From a virus: a DNA stretch of 7,976 bases. The notes below the pieces were generated by a model. It was not told the DNA's origin and did not search any database. It saw only the letters and a program-made list of their open reading frames with translations. The translations under genes and the position numbers were made by a program. The DNA is taken from IMG/VR virus record IMGVR_UViG_3300031760_001810, positions 1 to 7,976 of that record; one strand, written 5' to 3'. Shown piece by piece: positions 1 through 7,976 of this stretch (positions are counted from its first letter, which is position 1; the number at the start of each line of letters is the position of its first letter).

Positions 1-1
1 G

Positions 2-703
2 CGTGTTGTAAGGGCGTTCCTTTATTGGTGTATGGAGAAGCACTATGTCCAACAATTTAAAGTTAAATTAGTTGCCGAGCAAGAGATTGTGAAGATGACA
101 TACAGTGATGAAGACTGTATGAAATTGTTAGCCAAGCCGCGCAAGAATGATAGTTTTGTTGAGTGGCGCACCTGGGCTATTATCAACTGGGTGCTGGCTA
201 CTGGCAATCGTGCTGGCACTATTTGTAATATAAAAATTGGTGATGTTAATTTTTTAAGGCGCGAGGTTTATATCAATCGCACCAAGAACAACAAAGCAAG
301 CATTTTGCCCCTTTCAACAGCATTGGCAAATGCTTTGCAAGAGTATATTAAGATGTGGCTGTATGAGTTTGGACCCAACGATTGGTTATTCCCATCTTCT
401 ACAACCGCAGATCAATTAACAGTAAATGCGTTGAAGCATAGTGTGCGCCGCTATAATCTGGCGCGTGAGGTGGAGATGACTAGCATTCACGCATTTCGGC
501 ATACATTTGCTAAAAATTGGATTAGGAACACTGGCGATGTGTTCCGCTTACAAAAGATATTGGGTCATTCCACGCTAGAAATGACCCGACGCTATGTGAA
601 TATGTTCAGTGAAGACCTTAAAGAGGGTTATGAAGAGTTTAGTCCGCTTGACAAGTTGAAGAAAGCTAATAGCCGCACTCAACAAATCAAAAAGAGGGGT
701 TGA
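2..703 (+). CDS. int: Tyrosine-type site-specific recombinase / phage integrase, C-terminal catalytic domain. The 5' end probably lies upstream of the window.
   Basis: This frame is open from nt 2, with no stop before the ATG at 32, so the gene likely starts off-window. Catalytic signature read from the translation: LATGNR (Arg I), HAFRHTF (His-x-x-Arg), ILGHS, and RRYVNMF (Tyr nucleophile). TGA stop at 701-703. No in-frame TAG. Confidence 0.9.
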   Translation, partial: RVVRAFLYWCMEKHYVQQFKVKLVAEQEIVKMTYSDEDCMKLLAKPRKNDSFVEWRTWAIINWVLATGNRAGTICNIKIGDVNFLRREVYINRTKNNKASILPLSTALANALQEYIKMWLYEFGPNDWLFPSSTTADQLTVNALKHSVRRYNLAREVEMTSIHAFRHTFAKNWIRNTGDVFRLQKILGHSTLEMTRRYVNMFSEDLKEGYEEFSPLDKLKKANSRTQQIKKRG

Positions 704-712
704 TTACCCCTC
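689..712 (-). terminator. Intrinsic terminator hairpin shared by the two convergent genes. The U-tract is on the minus-strand side only.
   Basis: Perfect 7-bp stem GAGGGGT (694-700) / ACCCCTC (706-712) with the 5-nt loop TGATT. The loop and stem contain both stop codons (TGA 701-703 on plus, TAA 706-704 on minus). On the minus strand the hairpin is followed by TTTTTGATTTGTT (693 down to 681). On the plus strand no T-run follows. Confidence 0.55.
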
Positions 713-1018
713 GATGGCTTGTAATGCTGCCGCGAACTTCTCGTCAAGTTCGCGTCTTTTCTTCTCTTGGGCACGGCGCCGCAGTTCAGCATAGTTCTTA
801 ACCTTGTCTTTTGGTGTATAACCAAGGAACTTCTTGGCATAGTCAAACTTCAAGGTTGTAATGGAATGTGCTACTTCAATCTCTTGGTCGTCTCTCTTGC
901 GGATGTCTTTGCGCGCGCTCTCTTGTTGTATCCAGAGGAGTGCTTTCTTATCTTTGCGCGCAACTGCGTCGGCGATGAGGTCATCAATCGACATCGCCAT
1001 TATTTCTTTTGTAGTCAT
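704..1018 (-). CDS. Hypothetical 104-aa highly charged protein of unrecognised family, forming a stand-alone leftward transcription unit.
   Basis: ATG at 1018-1016 is preceded by AAGGAGGTGG (core GGAGG = plus 1026-1030, 7-nt spacing). TAA stop at 706-704. Lys/Arg/Glu-rich, helix-like composition. Has its own promoter and terminator (see other features). No in-frame TAG. Confidence 0.75.
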   Translation of the reverse strand: MTTKEIMAMSIDDLIADAVARKDKKALLWIQQESARKDIRKRDDQEIEVAHSITTLKFDYAKKFLGYTPKDKVKNYAELRRRAQEKKRRELDEKFAAALQAIEG

Positions 1019-1039
1019 AAGACCACCTCCTTAATGACT

Positions 1040-1068
1040 ATTATACTGGATATATTGTAAAATATCAA
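1040..1068 (-). promoter_or_regulatory. Near-consensus sigma-70/sigma-A type promoter driving the 104-aa leftward gene.
   Basis: Read on the minus strand: TTGATA (plus 1068-1063), a 17-nt spacer (1062-1046), then TATAAT (plus 1045-1040). The SD and ATG follow about 10-25 nt downstream of the -10 element. Confidence 0.55.
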
Positions 1069-1165
1069 GCCCATTTTGGGCGGATTAGCCATATTGGCTT
1101 ATGAGAAAAATTATTATTATATGAAAGTAGAACTCATTGAGGGCTCTTTCAAGAAAGGTTTTATT

Positions 1166-1738
1166 ATGAGTGAATTAGAAAATAAGGGTATGGAAAATCA
1201 GCAAACTCCTGATGAGGGTGCTACACCAAAGACTTATACCGAAGAAGAAGTGCGTGCTTTATTACAACAAGAGGGCGACCGTCGAGTGTCCCAGGCGCTG
1301 AATAAACAGCGTAAAGAGTTGGAAAAGAAGCAAGCAGAAGCCGAGAAGTTGCGCGAAATGGATGAGGCGCAACGCCGCGACTATGAATACAACAAGAAGG
1401 TTGAAGAACTTGAAGCAAAAGAACGTGAGTTCGCTATTGCGCAGAATAAATTAGAAGCATCCAAAGTGCTTACTAATAGAGGGCTTCCAATTGAGTTTGT
1501 AGATTATATTGTCGCGGATGATGCTGATACGATGATGGCTAATATCGAGACTTTTGACAAGGCATTTAAAGCTGCTGTCGCAGACGAGGTAGCCAAGCGT
1601 ATTGCACAACCGGCACCAAAGGCAGGGTCCGCACAGCAAGGTGGGCTTACGAAAGAACAGTTCCGCAAGTTGAACCTCGCGCAGCAGGCCGAGATTTATA
1701 GAACTAACCCTACATTATATAAAGAATTAACACAATAA
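1166..1738 (+). CDS. Phage head scaffolding protein (DUF4355-like).
   Basis: Charged coiled-coil-like protein (EEEVRALLQQEGDRRVSQALNKQRKELEKKQAEAEKLREMDEAQRRDYE...) placed immediately upstream of the major capsid gene. TAA stop at 1736-1738 overlaps the capsid SD. The start is uncertain. ATG 1166 has a weak AGAAAGG SD 7 nt upstream. ATG 1121 and ATG 1190 are alternatives. The TTG at 1076 in the ORF track is unlikely because it lies in the divergent promoter region. No in-frame TAG among 16 Gln codons. Confidence 0.8.
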   Translation: MSELENKGMENQQTPDEGATPKTYTEEEVRALLQQEGDRRVSQALNKQRKELEKKQAEAEKLREMDEAQRRDYEYNKKVEELEAKEREFAIAQNKLEASKVLTNRGLPIEFVDYIVADDADTMMANIETFDKAFKAAVADEVAKRIAQPAPKAGSAQQGGLTKEQFRKLNLAQQAEIYRTNPTLYKELTQ

Positions 1739-1752
1739 GGAGTGTATTGATT

Positions 1753-2529
1753 ATGGCACATACCATTTATGAGAACTTTGTTCTTGAAAATAAGATTAAT
1801 GATATCTTGACCACACAGGTTGATTTATCTAATTATATGTCTGTTGATAATTCTCTTACCGAAAATGCTGGTATGAAGAAGATTATTAATCGTTATACCG
1901 CTACCGGTAATGTTGAAGACCTTGCTATGGGCAAAGGCAATACCAATGATATCGAAATTGGTTTCGTTCCAGAAGAGTATGAAGTTGGCACCACCCAGGG
2001 TCGTTTTAAGTATTATGACGAGCAGGAAATGACCGACCCTATGGTAGTTGATGTTGGTCTTGATGGACTTGCCAAGCAGATGGTAAATGACTTTACTACC
2101 AAGGCTATTGCTGAATATAATAAGGCAACTCTTCTTGCTCCTGCTGCCGCTTGGAGTTTTGATGCTGTGGTTGATGCTATTGCCAAGATGAACCTTGAAG
2201 ATGAGACTGGCTTGTTCTTGCTTATCTCTCCTGCCGACCAGGCTGCTTTCCGCAAGGCTTTGAAGGACGACTTGAAGTATGTTGAAGGTTTTGTCCGCAC
2301 TGGTTATATCGGCACCGTTTGTGGTGTTCCTGTAATCGTGTCCAAGGCTGTTCCAGCAAATACTGGTTATCTTGCTACCAAAGATGCTATTACCCTTTTC
2401 GTTAAGAAGAGCACCGAAGTTGAACAAGAGCGCGATGCTAATGTTCGTGAAAATAAGGTATATGCTCGCAAGGTCGCATTGGTTGCTTTAACCGACGCTA
2501 CCAAGTTAGTAAAAATTACTATTGCTTAA
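1753..2529 (+). CDS. Major capsid protein, HK97 fold. By recollection it resembles the roughly 260-270 aa N4-gp56-type capsid family common in Bacillota siphophages.
   Basis: AAGGAG at 1737-1742 lies 10 nt before ATG 1753. The TTG at 1747 in the track is too close to the SD. Size, position after the scaffold gene, N-terminal YENFVLENKINDILTTQVDLSNYM and C-terminal GYIGTVCGVPVIVSK motifs fit. A strong terminator follows. TAA stop at 2527-2529. No in-frame TAG. Confidence 0.88.
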   Translation: MAHTIYENFVLENKINDILTTQVDLSNYMSVDNSLTENAGMKKIINRYTATGNVEDLAMGKGNTNDIEIGFVPEEYEVGTTQGRFKYYDEQEMTDPMVVDVGLDGLAKQMVNDFTTKAIAEYNKATLLAPAAAWSFDAVVDAIAKMNLEDETGLFLLISPADQAAFRKALKDDLKYVEGFVRTGYIGTVCGVPVIVSKAVPANTGYLATKDAITLFVKKSTEVEQERDANVRENKVYARKVALVALTDATKLVKITIA

Positions 2530-2537
2530 TCAATAAT

Positions 2538-2580
2538 GAGGCTCATAGGACTAATGTGCCTATGAGCCTCTAATTTTTTT
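2538..2580 (+). terminator. Rho-independent terminator or attenuator after the major capsid gene.
   Basis: Perfect 12-bp stem GAGGCTCATAGG (2538-2549) / CCTATGAGCCTC (2559-2570) with a 9-nt loop, followed by TAATTTTTTT (T-run 2574-2580). Confidence 0.85.
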
Positions 2581-2600
2581 ACACAAGGAGGTTCATTTTT

Positions 2601-2897
2601 GTGCTCGATAAGATTAAATTATTGCTCCATAAAGAAGACGATGAAAGCGTAGATGAATTGCTCCTTACATTGATTTCTTTATGCAAAGATGAAGCTTATA
2701 TCTACTGTAATTTAGAACAGTATGATGACGCACTTGATTATATTGTAATCCAGATGGTTATTGAACGCTTTAACCGCATTGGTAGTGAAGGGTTAGTAAG
2801 CCAGAGCTCATCTGGTGTATCAGCACAGTATAATGAGTTTTATAGTCCAAAAGTAGAAAGAATGTTAAATAAACATAGAAGGGTGAAATGTGTATGA
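2601..2897 (+). CDS. Head-tail connector / adaptor protein (gp6-like, putative DNA-packaging family).
   Basis: GTG start at 2601 with AAGGAGG at 2585-2591 (9-nt spacing). Length 98 aa. The acidic N-terminal pattern (LLHKEDDESVDELLLTLISLCKDEAYIYCN) and the C-terminal ...IGSEGLVSQSSSGVSAQY... are typical of this family, as is the position after the capsid gene. TGA stop at 2895-2897 overlaps the next ATG (ATGA). No in-frame TAG. Confidence 0.8.
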   Translation: MLDKIKLLLHKEDDESVDELLLTLISLCKDEAYIYCNLEQYDDALDYIVIQMVIERFNRIGSEGLVSQSSSGVSAQYNEFYSPKVERMLNKHRRVKCV

Positions 2898-3199
2898 CAA
2901 AGCGAGATACATTAACATATTTGCGCCTTCACTTTGTTGATGATGGCGAGGGCGGTGCAACAGTAGATAATATTGAAGAAGTCTCTGTGGTGCCAGCGCA
3001 CATTTCAGTCAATTCTACCGCAGAAGAAATAACAATGTATGGTGTAAAGTCATAGTGGATTTTACACGCTACGACTGACAAGCAACTTAACGATGGTATT
3101 GCCGCGCGTTATGCTTGGGGCGGCAGAGTATTTAAGATTATGCGGCAGATTAAATCAGGCAATGAATGGTTTTCTACTCTCTTGGAAGTAAGTGAATGA
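2894..3199 (+). CDS. Putative head-closure / head-tail joining protein (101 aa), readable only if TAG 3053-3055 is a sense codon.
   Basis: ATG 2894-2896 overlaps the upstream TGA (ATGA coupling), with a GAAGGGTG SD-like site upstream. The frame is open to TGA 3197-3199 except for the single TAG at 3053. The translation is ...EEITMYGVKS[TAG]WILHATTDKQLNDGIAARYAWGGRVFKIMRQIKSGNEWFSTLLEVSE. Without read-through, 2898-3211 would be an unexplained roughly 300-nt ORF-less gap in a tightly packed operon. Function is assigned from size and synteny only. Confidence 0.65.
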
Positions 3200-3211: not shown

Positions 3212-4432
<1,221 letters not shown>

Positions 4433-4446
<14 letters not shown>

Positions 4447-5596
4447 TAAACTTACTAATATTGCGGATGCTATTCGCGCGAAGACTGGTGAGAGTGATTT
4501 ACTTACTCTTGATGAGATGCCTGATGCTATTGCTAGTATTACTAGTGGCGGAAGTGCTGTTGATAATATGCCATAGCAGTTAATTTATTCCGGAGCATTA
4601 CAATATCATTTTTAGGGTGACCGTTATAAATGGGTAATTGAAAATTATAGTAATAAAATGATTTTTTAGCAACCTACGACTTTAAATTATGCTTTTCTGA
4701 ATTGCTCTTTATTACCTACTGTTGATATTAATATAACTAATGGTTGTGACTGTGAGTAGACTTTTAGCCAGTGTAAGCAACCTATACCTTATACTCTGTT
4801 TGGTGATCCTGTTAATATCCCATATATAAAAGGGAAACCTGGCTCATTAGAGTCTTTATTTTATGCGGCGAAAATAAACTTACCAAATGATTGGTTTAGT
4901 TATATTAGTTTAGAAAGTTATAATACTCATGCCGTAGCACATAGTATGAATAATATGTTTGCTGCTTCGACAATTCGTGGGACAATAAATATGAATATGT
5001 CTGTATTAGGCGACCGTGTTGGGATTAATGGTAGAAACGTTTATAATCTTTTGCCTTTTGATAGTAGCACCATAATGCAACCTGCTGTTATTGATAATTT
5101 ACTTAATATCCCAGTAATGAAATCGACTAACAATCCTACATCAGCAAGAACATTGTATTGGCGGTCTCCTATTTGTAAAAGAATAACTTTTTAGCTAAAT
5201 AATGGAGTTCCTTATGAAGCAAATTGGAATAAAATAACTTTGAATTTTTCAAACTGCGGATGGTGTAATGAGACTACTCCTTCTACTTTACGTTCTGGAT
5301 ATTCAATGACAACACAGGAAGTAGCAACGCTTGAAATTACGGATGCTACCAGCGCAGCCGCGTTAGCAGATAATCCAAATCGTTGGACCTCTAATGTAGA
5401 ATGGTCTTTATATAATAAAACATCAGCGCTTGAAACAATCGCTACATTACCCGATTTAACTTCAAGCGGTTCAACCGCTACTATTGTATTTAGTGGTAAT
5501 GCTGGCGCGAATACTCCTGGTGGTGCGATTAATACGATGACTGCTGATGAAATAGCAGTAGCAACCGCAAAAGGATGGACTATTTCATTCGTATAA
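4433..5596 (+). CDS. Putative fibre or receptor-binding protein (387 codons) with an N-terminal ADAIR-type motif and leucine-rich-repeat-like segments. Contains 5 in-frame TAG codons.
   Basis: ATG 4433 has AGGAG at 4419-4423 (9-nt spacing) and overlaps the upstream gene end by 14 nt. Track ORFs 4946-5194 and 5240-5596 lie in one frame. I checked that frame codon by codon: it is open from 4433 to TAA 5594-5596 except for TAGs at 4574, 4613, 4667, 4757 and 5192. The N-terminus LTNIADAIRAKTGESDLLTLDEMPDAIASI is a motif I recall from phage fibre and BspA-like proteins. LNYAFLNCSLLPTV and MNNMFAAS resemble LRR/DUF285-like units. Confidence 0.8.
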
Positions 5597-5609
5597 GGAG
5601 GGAAAAGAA

Positions 5610-6140
5610 TTGAGTTCAATTAAATATCGTAATTCAACTAATGATACTTGGCAAGAGCTTCAAGTAGTTGTCGGTCCATAGGGGCCAGCGGGAGCCGTTG
5701 GACCGCAAGGACCTGCTGGACCATAGGGCGAAACAGGGCCATAGGGGCCTGCTGGCCCCGCAGGCACTTATACAGCAGGAGCTAACATTACTATTGAAAA
5801 TGGCGTGATTAGTGCTACTGGTGGTTCAAATTATACTGCGGGCACCGGTATTGATATAACAAACAATGAAATAAGTGTTGATGCGACCGATTTGTCTTAT
5901 AACGATTTACAGAATAAACCCACTATTCCAACAGTGCCTACAAATATCAGTGCTTTTACAAATGATGCAGGTTATTTAACTGCACATCAAAGTTTAGTTG
6001 ATTATGCAACACAGACTTATGTTGATAACGCAGTTGGGAGTATTACGCCTGGCACAACCTATACCGCGGGCACAGGAATTGACATTACAAATGGTGTAAT
6101 ATCATTAGCTCTTGCTAATGCGAGTTAGGAGGAGATGTAA
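5610..6140 (+). CDS. Second collagen-like fibre protein (176 codons) with 4 in-frame TAG codons.
   Basis: TTG start at 5610 with AAGGAGGG at 5595-5602 (7-nt spacing). The frame is shared with track ORF 5805-6128. TAGs are at 5679, 5724, 5742 and 6126. The first non-TAG stop is TAA 6138-6140, which overlaps the next ATG (TAATG). It has an 11-triplet Gly-X-Y tract followed by three copies of a YTAGxGIxIxNxxIS motif. Confidence 0.8.
5673..5771 (+). repeat. Collagen Gly-X-Y tract in the second fibre gene: 11 triplets.
   Basis: GP[TAG] [14 protein letters not shown][TAG] GET GP[TAG] GPA GPA GTY. TAGs are at 5679, 5724 and 5742. Confidence 0.88.
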
Positions 6141-6925
6141 TGGCTGGCGAGATTAGTTCTTGGAGTTCAAGTAAAGAATGGCATCAAAACCTTGTAGATG
6201 ACTATAATGATTTAGTAATTGTTCCAAAAAGTATTTTAATTGATACTGCTGACGCAATTCGTATTAAACGAGATGGGACGAGCGCGATTCAGGCAGGTTC
6301 TGTTATTACGACTGGTAATGGCATTGCACCCGAAGATTTTGCTACTGAAATTACCAATATTCCTAATAAGATGAGTAGGCGCCAAGGACAGGTATCTTTT
6401 CCTTTAACTTGGAATGAAACCACATATTGTTGGGAAGGTTCTTTCTCCGTGCCTTCGGCTTTGACTAATTCATAGCAAATTGCTACAATTGTTTTATATA
6501 CTAATTAGACAGCGAATGCAAGCACTACCAGCATTTCTAACCCAGGAAGAATTGCTATATATAGCCGCAGTGTTATGCAGGATGCAATTGTAAATAATAG
6601 AACTTTTAATTGTTTGCCAACATCCGAGATTTTTGTATCTGGCAGTAGTTCCGGACATCGATGGGGCAGTTAGTGGTATCCATCTAGTGGGTCATTAGAG
6701 GCGAATACAACTTATCCACATTGGGTGATAGATATTGAGGCATTATTTGGTGCTACGCAAAGAACCCCTCGTAATTACACATCTGATGAGACTATTTCTG
6801 TAAAGTTTTATGCAATAACCGGCACACCATATACTCTTACTCCCAATGTTTTAACAGAAAGATATGGCACTGTTTGTCGCGGGCTACTTACCTATGATGC
6901 TTTTAAGGGCGAATGGGTGGGATAA
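6140..6925 (+). CDS. Putative fibre-associated or receptor-binding protein (261 codons) with an internal ADAIR-type motif and 3 in-frame TAG codons.
   Basis: ATG 6140 has AGGAGGAG at 6127-6134. Track ORFs 6140-6475 and 6725-6925 share one frame, which is open to TAA 6923-6925 except for TAGs at 6473, 6506 and 6671 (checked codon by codon). Contains LIDTADAIRIKRDGTSAI...APEDFATEITNI. Confidence 0.75.
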
Positions 6926-6929
6926 TAAT

Positions 6930-7598
6930 ATGGGCTTATATTGTGCTATTCCTGTTAGTTGGATAACTGAATAGATTGCAGAATTGGGCGCACTGGAAGT
7001 TGCAATGGGGCAAGCACAAGCAGCATCCGAAGCTTCACGATATCCACCAGACGACCAAGAAGAAGCAGAAGATTTTTATGATGTTTGTTGGGGCTATGAT
7101 GAAGCAGAAGTGCCAGAGTTTAATATTAACCCTGCGGTTGAAGCATTTAAATCAGCTTTTGATAATGTGATTTATACAATGTGCCCCGTGCGCACTGGGT
7201 TCTTACGCAGTAGTTGCCACTGTGAAATAAGCAATGAGTTGATTGAATGTTTTGCTGATGCTGAATATGCGCAATATGTTGAATATGGCACTTCACGCAT
7301 GGCACCATAGCCCTATTTTGAACCGGCGATTATGGCGGGTCTTCAAGCATTTATCGAGATAAACGGTTCGTGTATTGACCAATTTAAAAGAGATGTTGAA
7401 AAGATCACCCAAGATGCGGTTCAAGATATTATATTTAGTGCAGCGGACTTTGGCAGTTTAATTTTGGCATTAATTATTGCTATTTTAATCACTGCGGTTA
7501 TTGAAGTTATTTTAAGTATATTTGACCCAATGTGGGATGATTTCCGTGCGGCCATAGCAGAAGTGTTATTTGACGCCATAGATATATAGATTGAATAA
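6930..7598 (+). CDS. HK97-gp10-like head-tail joining / tail-completion protein with a hydrophobic C-terminal extension (222 codons). Contains 3 in-frame TAG codons.
   Basis: ATG 6930 lies 5 nt after the upstream TAA. Track ORFs 6984-7310 and 7332-7589 share one frame. TAGs are at 6972, 7308 and 7587, and the first non-TAG stop is TAA 7596-7598. The motif AEYAQYVEYGTSRMAP[TAG]PYFEPA matches my recollection of the gp10-family signature (yVEfGT..m.a.PF/Y..pA). The start is uncertain: TTG 6984 and ATG 7005 are alternatives. Confidence 0.7.
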
Positions 7599-7608
7599 GG
7601 AGACAATT

Positions 7609-7806
7609 ATGAACAGAGTTTATACTGCTCCTGATGGTAAAGTATATGATTGGGCTGAACCGCATATCGCTACCATCATTGAGGAAGATGGAAGCACTAC
7701 TGAACGAGTAGAGCATTTGTATGCGAAGTATTTATCTATTTCGCGCTTTGATAATATTGACAATTATATCATCGTAGATGACCCAAGGAGTGGGGCCAAT
7801 GTATGA
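7609..7806 (+). CDS. Hypothetical 65-aa protein.
   Basis: AAGGAG at 7597-7602 lies 6 nt before ATG 7609. The TTG at 7591 in the track has no SD. TGA stop at 7804-7806. Contains no Gln and no TAG codons. Confidence 0.65.
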   Translation: MNRVYTAPDGKVYDWAEPHIATIIEEDGSTTERVEHLYAKYLSISRFDNIDNYIIVDDPRSGANV

Positions 7807-7976
7807 AGTGATTAAAAAGAAGTTTAAAGAATTTCTTACAGCGATGGGATATAATGTTGGCGATAATTGGGTAATGCGAGATGAGTTCCCATATTTAAAT
7901 TTGCGAATTAATGGTGGAGCATTTGCTCCATTGCGCAATGCTAATGGAACTATCTTAACTATTACTGTTGATATTT
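7799..7976 (+). CDS. 5' part of a further neck or tail structural gene, running off the right edge. Function assigned by synteny only.
   Basis: AAGGAG at 7785-7790 lies 8 nt before ATG 7799 and overlaps the upstream gene end (ATGTATGA). There are 59 open codons to the window edge (MYEVIKKKFKEFLTAMGYNVGDNWVMRDEFPYLNLRINGGAFAPLRNANGTILTITVDI...). It is absent from the ORF track, presumably because it has no stop in the window. Confidence 0.55.
   Translation, partial: MYEVIKKKFKEFLTAMGYNVGDNWVMRDEFPYLNLRINGGAFAPLRNANGTILTITVDI

What the first reader, a model, noticed from the sequence alone, without database searches (positions are those of the whole stretch)
32..3055. TAG usage is sharply compartmentalised: lysogeny and head-shell genes are standard-code compatible, while neck and fibre genes need recoding
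By hand count, integrase (8 Gln), the 104-aa gene (5), scaffold (16), major capsid (6) and connector (4) use only CAA or CAG. That is 0 TAG at 39 Gln positions. From 2894 to the window end, 23 of 71 Gln-equivalent positions are TAG.

Under a naive uniform model with the downstream TAG fraction, 0 of 39 has a probability of about 1e-7. For scaffold, capsid and connector alone (0 of 26) it is about 4e-5. Both are hand arithmetic.

The switch lies between the capsid stop at 2529 and the first TAG at 3053, close to the strong terminator at 2538-2580.

Two non-exclusive readings are possible. (a) Recoding gates translation: integrase and the prophage-expressed gene can be made by an unmodified host, while virion completion and fibres require the suppressor to be active. 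This extends the published idea that recoding times lytic gene expression. (b) The genome is a mosaic, with a head module recently acquired from a standard-code phage.
Basis: partly seen in the sequence, partly recalled or inferred. Interest (0 to 1): 0.75.

Follow-up and report, generated by a model that had tools for sequence, protein, structure and literature searches.

The report
TAG-free integrase and capsid genes
In this small gut phage that reads the stop codon TAG as glutamine, the integrase and the two most abundantly made head proteins avoid TAG; the integrase part is already published for such phages and the capsid part is a modest new detail, not a head-versus-tail split.

Summary
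The counts are correct: 0 TAG at 39 Gln positions from integrase to connector, against 23 of 71 downstream. The significance was overstated. A scan-corrected permutation test on the whole genome unit gives p about 0.002, not 1e-7.

The window is part of a ~25.8-kb TAG-to-Gln recoded siphophage, recovered at 99.85% identity in a 52-kb ENA contig. It resembles the published Topaz and Garnet prophages.

The genome-wide view contradicts a head-versus-neck/fibre split. Just upstream of the integrase, terS (2/10), terL (5/23), portal (4/20) and MuF (3/7) are all recoded.

The TAG-free run joins two unrelated things:
- **Integrase plus antisense 104-aa gene.** This cassette is present in some relatives and absent in others. 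Integrase avoidance of TAG is already published.
- **Scaffold plus major capsid.** These are TAG-poor in 13 of 13 recoded relatives, despite abundant CAA/CAG turnover. They sit upstream of a terminator whose position is conserved across the family.

The connector's 0/4 is probably chance, since the family-wide figure is 17%. Recent acquisition from a standard-code phage is not supported for the head genes. The most likely cause is selection against a costly suppressed codon in the most heavily translated proteins. No suppressor tRNA is detectable.

The parts
1..703 (+). Tyrosine integrase, C-terminal 233 codons. The gene is cut by the window edge; the full gene is 322 aa. It has 0 TAG at 8 Gln in the window and 0 of 9 in the full gene.
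   Evidence: PHROG 1 and 216 integrase, E 7e-32. PF00589 on the full gene in L001. Codon counts.
1..973 (.). The window's part of an indel-polymorphic integrase + g104 cassette (L001 7714-9221). L018 lacks it entirely despite portal and MuF proteins 99% identical to this phage's. L019 lacks only the integrase.
   Evidence: blastn breakpoints. GC3 of 0.45 and 0.53 against 0.23-0.42 elsewhere.
694..712 (.). Hairpin between the convergent integrase and g104 stop codons. It is followed by a T-run on the minus strand.
   Evidence: Terminator-like site found.
704..1018 (-). 104-aa gene of unknown function, antisense to the structural operon. It has 0 TAG at 5 Gln, and 0 of 15 across four lineages.
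   Evidence: No PHROG, Pfam or NCBIfam match.
1040..1068 (-). Sigma-70-like promoter (TTGATA, 17 nt, TATAAT; 11 of 12 matches), 21 nt upstream of the g104 start.
   Evidence: Best-scoring promoter-like site in the window. This is a consensus match only.
1166..1738 (+). Head scaffolding protein (DUF4355). It has 0 TAG at 16 Gln.
   Evidence: PHROG 172, E 4e-37. Pooled over 12 recoded relatives, 7 TAG of 171.
1753..2529 (+). Major capsid protein. It has 0 TAG at 6 Gln and the strongest codon bias in the genome.
   Evidence: PHROG 544, E 1e-21. T-ending 4-fold codons 0.69 against 0.22-0.64 in the other genes (most 0.25-0.48), and AAG 0.85. Pooled over relatives, 3 TAG of 62.
2538..2580 (+). Intrinsic terminator immediately after the capsid stop codon. 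Its position is conserved across the family.
   Evidence: dG -25.5 kcal/mol, z -5.0. A hairpin plus T-run follows the capsid gene in 11 of 12 recoded genomes examined (this phage included), with different stem sequences, and in 3 of the 5 standard-code relatives examined.
2601..2897 (+). Head-tail adaptor (connector). It has 0 TAG at 4 Gln, which is not a family-wide property.
   Evidence: PHROG 132, E 2e-21. Pooled over relatives, 7 of 42 = 17%. At column level 4 of 19, not significant.
2894..3199 (+). Head-closure (Hc1)-like gene. It carries the first in-frame TAG, at 3053.
   Evidence: PHROG 501, E 0.002, with the alignment spanning the TAG.
3212..3541 (+). 109-aa gene of unknown function. 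It has 0 TAG at 3 Gln.
   Evidence: PHROG 1084. Counts.
3541..4446 (+). Collagen-repeat fibre protein. It has 7 TAG of 22, at the Y position of the G-X-Y repeats.
4433..5596 (+). 387-aa protein of unknown function. It has 5 TAG of 12.
5610..6140 (+). Second collagen-repeat fibre protein. It has 4 TAG of 10.
6140..6925 (+). 261-aa protein of unknown function. It has 3 TAG of 10.
6930..7598 (+). HK97 gp10 / Neck1-like protein. It has 3 TAG of 11.
   Evidence: PHROG 5, E 3e-8. Counts.
7609..7806 (+). 65-aa gene with no Gln codons.
7799..7976 (+). Start of a 129-aa gene that continues past the window end. Its counterparts in relatives show a weak tail-completion gp17 Pfam hit.

Best explanation
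The window comes from a ~25.8-kb temperate siphophage of Clostridia that reads TAG as glutamine. It resembles the published Topaz clade of Borges et al.

The TAG-free run from integrase to connector is not a head compartment. It is two separate gene sets that happen to lie next to each other.

1. **Integrase plus the antisense 104-aa gene.** This cassette has to be translated in a host that still terminates at TAG, so TAG is excluded from it. This is the known lysogeny-module behaviour. The cassette is also an indel-polymorphic insertion with its own base composition.

2. **Scaffold plus major capsid.** These are the proteins made in the largest amounts. They are encoded upstream of a terminator whose position is conserved across the family. 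Codon-level selection keeps TAG out of them, presumably because suppression of TAG is slower or less complete than decoding of CAA/CAG. The cost of truncated product, and possibly of poisoned assembly, would then scale with expression.

The connector's 0 of 4 is a small-sample accident of this lineage.

Shown directly: the counts, the genome-wide distribution, the family-wide depletion, the synonymous turnover, the capsid codon bias, the terminator and the cassette indel.

Inferred: that expression level and incomplete suppression are the cause.
For: **TAG is read as glutamine.**
- Reading TAG as sense restores full-length homologues of the structural genes.
- None of the 27 complete genes ends in TAG.
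- Opposite TAG columns, standard-code relatives carry Gln in 134 of 641 cases (21%), against a 3.75% background.

**Genome-wide distribution** (TAG / Gln-equivalent positions).

| Gene | TAG/Gln | Gene | TAG/Gln |
|---|---|---|---|
| terS | 2/10 | adaptor | 0/4 |
| terL | 5/23 | fibre and neck genes | 27-42% |
| portal | 4/20 | major tail protein | 0/4 |
| MuF | 3/7 | giant tail gene | 7/105 |
| integrase | 0/9 | | |
| g104 | 0/5 | | |
| scaffold | 0/16 | | |
| capsid | 0/6 | | |

**Family-wide depletion in scaffold and capsid.**
- Their TAG fraction is below that of other genes in 13 of 13 recoded genomes.
- A homology-free ORF count shows no excess of TAG in them: they are clearly lower in the more heavily recoded genomes and not distinguishable in the three weakly recoded fragments, L096, L099 and L100.
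- At alignment-column level, scaffold plus capsid have TAG in 8 of 56 columns, against 179 of 453 in other families (p = 1.2e-4).
- Integrase, g104, s136 and s59 together have 0 of 46 (p = 5e-10).

**There has been time for TAG to accumulate.** The scaffold has 18-20 CAA/CAG-polymorphic Gln columns but only 5 with any TAG. terL has TAG in 31 of 47 columns.

**Signs of translational selection on the capsid gene.**
- T-ending 4-fold codons are 0.69, against 0.22-0.64 in the other genes (most 0.25-0.48). AAG is 0.85.
- CAG preference is 0.81 in recoded genomes. In standard-code relatives it is 0.52, against 0.30 for other genes.

**Terminator.** A terminator follows the capsid stop codon at the same position across the family, with different stem sequences.

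**Cassette.** L018 lacks the cassette and L019 lacks only the integrase. g104 has its own strong promoter-like site.

**Literature.** Integrase avoidance of TAG is reported for Topaz and Garnet, along with the lysogeny-switch model (10.1101/2021.08.26.457843).
Against: - There are no expression or read-through data. The link to abundance is an inference.
- The major tail protein, which is also abundant, is not TAG-depleted in the family (12 of 54 pooled; 9 of 19 columns).
- The scaffold's general codon bias is unremarkable.
- Across all genes, TAG fraction does not correlate with simple codon-bias indices.
- In TAG-recoded crAss-like phages, capsid proteins were among those detected only under code 15 (PMC9523058). 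Capsid avoidance of TAG is therefore not universal.
- The relatives share ancestry, so the 13-of-13 result and the column counts are not fully independent.
- No suppressor tRNA was found. How efficiently TAG is decoded is therefore unknown.
Confidence: 0.55

Rival explanations
1. Gating of the whole block. Integrase, g104, scaffold, capsid and connector are kept standard-code compatible so that an unmodified host can make them. Only virion completion and fibres would then wait for the suppressor.
For: Integrase, g104 and two small genes upstream of terS are completely TAG-free across lineages (0 of 46 columns). This matches the published lysogeny-switch model (10.1101/2021.08.26.457843). The first TAG in the window lies just beyond the terminator that follows the capsid gene.
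Against: terS, terL, portal and MuF lie on the same strand directly upstream and carry 2-5 TAGs each. No procapsid can be completed or filled without the suppressor, so a TAG-free capsid gene adds nothing to the gate. Relatives carry occasional TAGs in scaffold and capsid (7 of 171 and 3 of 62), which an all-or-none gate would not tolerate. No phage-encoded suppressor is detectable to act as the switch.
Confidence: 0.15
2. Mosaic origin. The TAG-free head genes were recently acquired from a standard-code relative and have not yet accumulated TAG.
For: The family is strongly mosaic. Against L006, the scaffold is 100% identical, the capsid 81% and the adaptor 99%. Against L018, portal and MuF are 99% identical but the capsid only 81%. 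Standard-code relatives exist at 62-75% capsid identity. The integrase cassette really is an indel with higher GC3.
Against: The closest scaffold, capsid and adaptor relatives (86-100%) are all in recoded genomes. The best standard-code identities (scaffold 69%, capsid 75%) are no higher than for TAG-rich terL (72%). The depletion is shared by 13 recoded genomes, down to 64% capsid identity. The scaffold has 18-20 CAA/CAG-polymorphic columns, so synonymous change has been plentiful.
Confidence: 0.07
3. Chance or composition. The run is a sampling accident among short genes with few Gln codons, or it follows local GC3, gene length or mutation bias.
For: Taken one at a time, the genes are weak evidence. 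At 20-25% TAG, 0/6, 0/5 and 0/4 are each unremarkable. The gene-level heterogeneity test without the giant gene gives p = 0.098. Other small genes are also TAG-free: Dit 0/3, g7 0/3, major tail protein 0/4, chapT 0/5.
Against: The scan-corrected permutation test gives p = 0.0023. The family-wide column tests give p = 1.2e-4 and 5e-10. TAG fraction does not correlate significantly with GC3 (rho -0.35, p 0.11), GC or gene length.
Confidence: 0.08

Closest known systems
Topaz and Garnet TAG-recoded temperate phages (Borges et al., bioRxiv 10.1101/2021.08.26.457843; later published in Nature Microbiology, 2022)
   Same: Both are small circular genomes. Topaz is 22 +/- 3 kb, with curated 23.7-kb Topaz and 24.4-kb Garnet prophages; this unit is about 25.8 kb. 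TAG is read as Gln in the structural genes. The integrase is among the few genes with no in-frame TAG. Standard-code close relatives exist within the same clade. Relatives of this family occur on Ruminococcaceae and Oscillospiraceae-type MAG contigs, matching the Topaz host.
   Different: Membership could not be tested against the Topaz reference genomes. Here the integrase sits inside the head-morphogenesis operon, between MuF and scaffold, as an indel-polymorphic cassette. The scaffold and capsid depletion is not reported in that paper, which names only integrase families as TAG-avoiding.
Block-wise dual coding in crAss-like and other recoded phages (Ivanova 2014; Yutin 2021, PMC7886860; Mgcod, 10.1101/2022.06.29.495998)
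   Same: The genome is divided into genes translatable under either code and genes that need the reassigned code. Lysogeny or early functions fall on the standard-compatible side.
   Different: In those phages the boundary separates early from late genes and usually coincides with a strand switch. Here two late, same-strand structural genes (scaffold and capsid) are TAG-free in the middle of recoded late genes. No suppressor tRNA is encoded either.
Avoidance of poorly decoded codons in highly expressed genes (translational selection on codon usage; general knowledge, not tested here)
   Same: The capsid gene has the strongest codon bias in the genome. It prefers CAG even in standard-code relatives. 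It excludes the one Gln codon that competes with release factor.
   Different: The disfavoured codon is a reassigned stop, so the penalty would be truncation rather than slow decoding. The other abundant protein, the major tail protein, does not follow the rule in this family.

Membership tests
Code-15 (TAG to Gln) recoded phage | In-frame TAGs lie inside conserved genes, and reading them as sense restores full-length homologues. | tested here: met
   TAA/TGA-delimited ORFs give full-length Hc1, fibre, gp10, terL, portal and other genes. The ENA gene calls on L001 agree.
Code-15 (TAG to Gln) recoded phage | TAG is not used as a terminator. | tested here: met
   None of the 27 complete genes ends in TAG; all end in TAA or TGA.
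Code-15 (TAG to Gln) recoded phage | TAG positions correspond to Gln in standard-code homologues. | tested here: met
   Gln is the commonest residue opposite TAG columns (134 of 641 = 21%, against a 3.75% background), followed by K, E and R. TAG also occupies the Y position of the collagen G-X-Y repeats, where CAA and CAG occur too.
Code-15 (TAG to Gln) recoded phage | A phage-encoded suppressor tRNA(CUA). This is frequent but not universal: 40-52% of such genomes in the literature. | tested here: not met
   ARAGORN finds no tRNA in L001, L006, L007, L008 or in ten further recoded relatives scanned. Rfam at E <= 1 finds nothing in the whole unit.
Code-15 (TAG to Gln) recoded phage | Peptides showing Gln at TAG positions. 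| not testable with these tools
   This needs proteomics.
Topaz clade (Borges et al.) | A small circular genome of about 22 +/- 3 kb. | tested here: met
   The unit length is about 25.8 kb, from the spacing of the two giant-gene ends in the 52-kb contig. Many relatives sit on 24-26-kb contigs. This is at the upper edge of the published range.
Topaz clade (Borges et al.) | A Firmicutes (Oscillospiraceae) host. | tested here: inconclusive
   Capsid relatives (54-67% identity) lie on long contigs of a Ruminococcaceae MAG, a Faecousia MAG and the Sedimentibacter hydroxybenzoicus DSM 7310 genome, but these are standard-code prophages. No integrated copy of the recoded phage itself was found.
Topaz clade (Borges et al.) | The integrase is free of in-frame TAG. 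| tested here: met
   0/9 here, 0/7 in L017 and 0/12 in L030.
Topaz clade (Borges et al.) | The large terminase clusters with Topaz reference genomes. | not testable with these tools
   The reference Topaz sequences are not in any searchable collection here.
Early/late block-wise dual coding (crAss-like, Mgcod) | The standard-compatible block consists of early genes, and its boundary coincides with a strand switch. | tested here: not met
   Scaffold and capsid are late structural genes on the same strand as the recoded terminase, portal and fibre genes. Only g104 is on the other strand.

The most novel reading that the evidence does not exclude
In this suppressor-less phage family, TAG codons may act as graded translational attenuators that set virion stoichiometry, rather than as an on/off gate. 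Read-through by a host-derived or co-resident suppressor would be efficient but incomplete, so each protein's yield would fall with its number of TAGs. Under this reading:
- Proteins needed in hundreds of copies (capsid, scaffold) are held at zero.
- Low-copy proteins (terminase, portal, fibres) carry 2-7.
- The 2935-aa tail protein keeps a low TAG fraction (7 of 105), which limits its TAG number to 7, the same as the shorter collagen fibre gene.
- Genes expressed without any suppressor (integrase, g104, s136) are strictly TAG-free.
Probability: 0.15. Interest if true: 0.7.

Novelty: new member of a known kind. Interest (0 to 1): 0.35.

Why it matters
The result shows how far a single window can mislead. 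What looked like a clean head-versus-tail code boundary breaks down once terminase and portal are seen.

What remains is a small but testable addition to the recoding literature. In one family of about 25-kb TAG-recoded phages, the two most abundant head proteins avoid the reassigned codon as a conserved, codon-level trait. Published work has stressed which genes prefer recoded stops and that integrases avoid them.

If the cause is incomplete suppression, recoding carries a measurable translational cost. That constrains models of how code change evolves. It also matters especially for the roughly half of TAG-recoded phages with no detectable suppressor tRNA, this family among them.

Tried and rejected
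- **Close GenBank relatives.** Megablast of the window against GenBank phages found nothing. tblastn with the capsid protein found only 28%-identical Streptococcus and Staphylococcus phage capsids. There is no cultured close relative.
- **Rest of the 52-kb contig.** I searched the protein database with the C-terminal 956 aa of the giant gene. The exact protein was not returned, so contig positions 1-17488 and 43543-52010 were not read. One full unit was nevertheless covered by L001 plus L007. An earlier attempt failed because TAGs were read as stops.
- **Function of unknown genes.** Pfam, NCBIfam and PHROG searches on g104, s57, s59, s136, g9, g11 and the giant gene's N-terminus gave nothing usable.
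- **Suppressor tRNA or other RNA.** None was found.
- **Compositional explanations.** GC3, GC, gene length and Gln count do not predict TAG fraction. T-ending 4-fold, NAC and AAG indices do not correlate with TAG fraction across genes; only the capsid gene stands out.
- **TAG as a leaky capsid stop.** I considered that longer capsid ORFs in relatives might arise from a leaky TAG stop codon. Rejected: those alleles have a genuine ~50-aa C-terminal extension with no TAG.
- **Dimer contig as a simple repeat.** I considered that the 52-kb contig was a simple duplicated assembly. Rejected: its two giant genes are only 52% identical at the C-terminus.

Full report
**1. What the window is**

Reading TAG as a sense codon turns the fragmented standard-code ORFs into a continuous, same-strand structural operon. 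The genes, in order, are:
- integrase fragment (2-703)
- an antisense 104-aa gene (704-1018)
- scaffold (1166-1738)
- major capsid (1753-2529)
- head-tail adaptor (2601-2897)
- Hc1-like (2894-3199)
- a 109-aa gene
- two collagen-repeat fibre proteins and two proteins of unknown function
- a gp10/Neck1-like protein
- two small genes

PHROG matches support these names.

The window is 99.85% identical to part of a 52,010-bp ENA contig. Window position 1 corresponds to L001 position 8249.

**2. Check of the observation**

The hand counts are exact: 0 TAG at 39 Gln positions upstream, and 23 TAG of 71 from 2894 onward. The first TAG is at 3053. The terminator at 2538-2580 is real (dG -25.5 kcal/mol, z -5.0).

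Fisher's exact test gives p = 1.2e-5. A permutation test on the longest TAG-free run in the complete genome unit, which allows for the split having been chosen after looking, gives p = 0.0023. The pattern is real but far less extreme than 1e-7.

A second run of 54 TAG-free Gln positions covers chapT and the first 1247 codons of the giant tail gene.

**3.

L001 and L007 together cover one complete unit of about 25.8 kb. Many relatives sit on 24-26-kb contigs. The 52-kb contig is two related units in tandem.

The gene order is: Dit, Tal, HNH, three small genes, terS, terL, portal, MuF, [integrase, g104], scaffold, capsid, adaptor, Hc1, fibre module, gp10, tail completion, major tail protein, two chaperone-like genes, then a 2935-aa gene in the tape-measure position.

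TAG per Gln-equivalent position:

| Gene | TAG/Gln | Gene | TAG/Gln |
|---|---|---|---|
| terS | 2/10 | coll1 | 7/22 |
| terL | 5/23 | g9 | 5/12 |
| portal | 4/20 | coll2 | 4/10 |
| MuF | 3/7 | g11 | 3/10 |
| integrase | 0/9 | gp10 | 3/11 |
| g104 | 0/5 | major tail protein | 0/4 |
| scaffold | 0/16 | chapG | 3/7 |
| capsid | 0/6 | giant | 7/105 |
| adaptor | 0/4 | Tal | 4/24 |
| Hc1 | 1/3 | | |

No gene ends in TAG. The head-assembly genes just outside the window are as recoded as the fibres.

**4. TAG means glutamine**

In alignments with standard-code relatives, the residue opposite TAG columns is most often Gln (134 of 641, against a 3.75% background), then K, E and R. In the collagen repeats, TAG alternates with CAA/CAG at the same repeat position.

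**5. Relatives**

A capsid-based scan of IMG/VR returned 80 loci. Thirteen further genomes of this family are TAG-recoded; ten come from that scan and three from the contig look-ups. Twelve close relatives use the standard code, at 62-75% capsid identity.

Scaffold plus capsid have a lower TAG fraction than the other genes in 13 of 13 recoded genomes that could be tested (this phage and 12 relatives; L012 holds neither gene). A homology-free ORF count shows no excess of TAG in scaffold plus capsid; they are clearly lower in the more heavily recoded genomes and not distinguishable in three weakly recoded fragments.

Pooled TAG fractions:

| Gene family | TAG fraction |
|---|---|
| integrase | 0% |
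| g104 | 0% |
| s136 | 0% |
| scaffold | 4% |
| capsid | 5% |
| terS | 15% |
| adaptor | 17% |
| portal | 19% |
| major tail protein | 22% |
| terL | 37% |
| MuF | 41% |

Alignment columns are closer to evolutionary events than pooled codon counts. At column level, scaffold plus capsid have TAG in 8 of 56 Gln columns, against 179 of 453 elsewhere (p = 1.2e-4). Integrase, g104, s136 and s59 together have 0 of 46 (p = 5e-10). The adaptor (4 of 19) and the major tail protein (9 of 19) are not depleted, and terL is enriched (31 of 47).

The scaffold has 18-20 CAA/CAG-polymorphic columns. Synonymous change has therefore been plentiful, and it is TAG specifically that is missing.

**6. Testing the two proposed readings**

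*Gating.* This fits the integrase, and is already published for the small TAG-recoded Topaz and Garnet prophages. [quoted passage not shown] It also fits g104, which is antisense, has the best promoter-like site in the window, and is TAG-free in four lineages.

Gating does not explain scaffold and capsid, because terminase and portal already require read-through.

*Mosaic acquisition.* Gene-scale mosaicism is rampant. Against L006, for example, the scaffold is 100% identical, the capsid 81% and the adaptor 99%. The integrase cassette is an indel: L018, whose portal and MuF proteins are 99% identical to this phage's, lacks L001 7714-9221, and L019 lacks only the integrase.

However, scaffold and capsid are closest to alleles in recoded genomes. 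They are no nearer to standard-code relatives (69% and 75%) than TAG-rich terL is (72%). Recent import from a standard-code phage is therefore not supported.

**7. Most likely mechanism**

Scaffold and capsid are the proteins needed in the largest numbers. The evidence pointing to expression level is:
- The capsid gene has by far the strongest codon bias in the genome (T-ending 4-fold codons 0.69, AAG 0.85).
- It prefers CAG even in standard-code relatives (0.52 against 0.30).
- A strong terminator follows the capsid stop codon at the same position in nearly all family members, with different stem sequences. This is the usual sign of a highly expressed scaffold-capsid unit with attenuated downstream transcription.

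I infer that suppression of TAG is less efficient than normal decoding, and that its cost is selected against in proportion to expression.

This inference has weaknesses:
- The major tail protein is not depleted in the family.
- The scaffold's general codon bias is ordinary.
- Composition does not explain the pattern either, so no simpler alternative is available.
- In crAss-like phages, capsid proteins were among those needing code 15 (PMC9523058).
- No expression data exist.

**8. An open problem**

No tRNA or any Rfam family is detectable in the unit or in any recoded relative scanned. This is in line with reports that only 40-52% of TAG-recoded phages have a detectable suppressor (10.1101/2021.08.26.457843; PMC11210395). 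The gate's switch, if there is one, is not a recognisable phage tRNA.

**9. Verdict**

The conserved TAG avoidance in scaffold and capsid is a modest new detail within a known phenomenon. I class the finding as a new member of a known kind, with moderate-to-low interest.

Noticed in passing
L001 and L007 (ENA ERZ27256908 k141_100508, contig positions 17489-43542): The 52,010-bp contig appears to be two related ~25.8-kb phage units joined head to tail. Their giant tail genes differ (2969 aa and 2935 aa) and are only 52% identical at the C-terminus. This is either an assembly figure-of-eight of two co-occurring strains or a real tandem.
   Followed up: partly
Whole unit (L001 1-20777 plus the L007 tail) and the recoded relatives L012, L014, L016-L019, L026, L027, L030, L031: ARAGORN finds no tRNA gene of any kind, and Rfam finds no family hit in the unit (L001 and L007), although 19 of the 28 genes in the unit model need TAG read-through. 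The source of the suppressor is unknown. It could be the host, a co-resident phage, or a non-canonical RNA.
   Followed up: partly
L007 11631-20198 (downstream of the window): A 2935-aa gene occupies the tape-measure position, between the chaperone-like genes and Dit/Tal. It has no Pfam or NCBIfam match. Its N-terminus looks Dit-like by eye. It has no TAG in its first 1247 codons and 7 in the rest. No conventional tape-measure gene was recognised.
   Followed up: partly
Window 1-973 (L001 7714-9221): The integrase + g104 cassette lies inside the head-morphogenesis operon, between MuF and scaffold, and is present or absent among near-identical relatives. If attP is next to the integrase, integration would split the late operon in the prophage.
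   Followed up: partly
Window 3212-6925: A module of two collagen-repeat fibre proteins and three proteins of unknown function sits between the head-closure gene and the gp10/Neck1 gene. This is an unusual place for fibres and may indicate neck or head fibres.
   Followed up: no
L006 3792-4721, and the capsid genes of L017, L018, L019, L026, L031 and L037: Several relatives carry capsid alleles with a C-terminal extension of about 50 aa (longer in L031), which this phage lacks. In L006 the flanking scaffold and adaptor are 99-100% identical to this phage while the capsid is only 81% identical. This implies allele swapping at the level of a single gene.
   Followed up: partly
L020-L025, L028, L029, L033-L036: Standard-code phages with the same gene order and 62-75% capsid identity coexist with the recoded ones. 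The genetic code has therefore switched within this family.
   Followed up: partly
L001 2995-3603 (upstream of terS, outside the window): Two small genes of unknown function (59 aa and 136 aa) are TAG-free in all three genomes where they were found (0 of 5 and 0 of 19 Gln). They may be early or regulatory genes. In L014, a 213-aa gene between the HNH gene and terS shows a faint Rep3_N hit.
   Followed up: no
Window 694-712: A single GC-rich hairpin sits exactly between the convergent integrase and g104 stop codons. The scan flagged it as a terminator on the minus strand only; it could also act on the integrase transcript.
   Followed up: no
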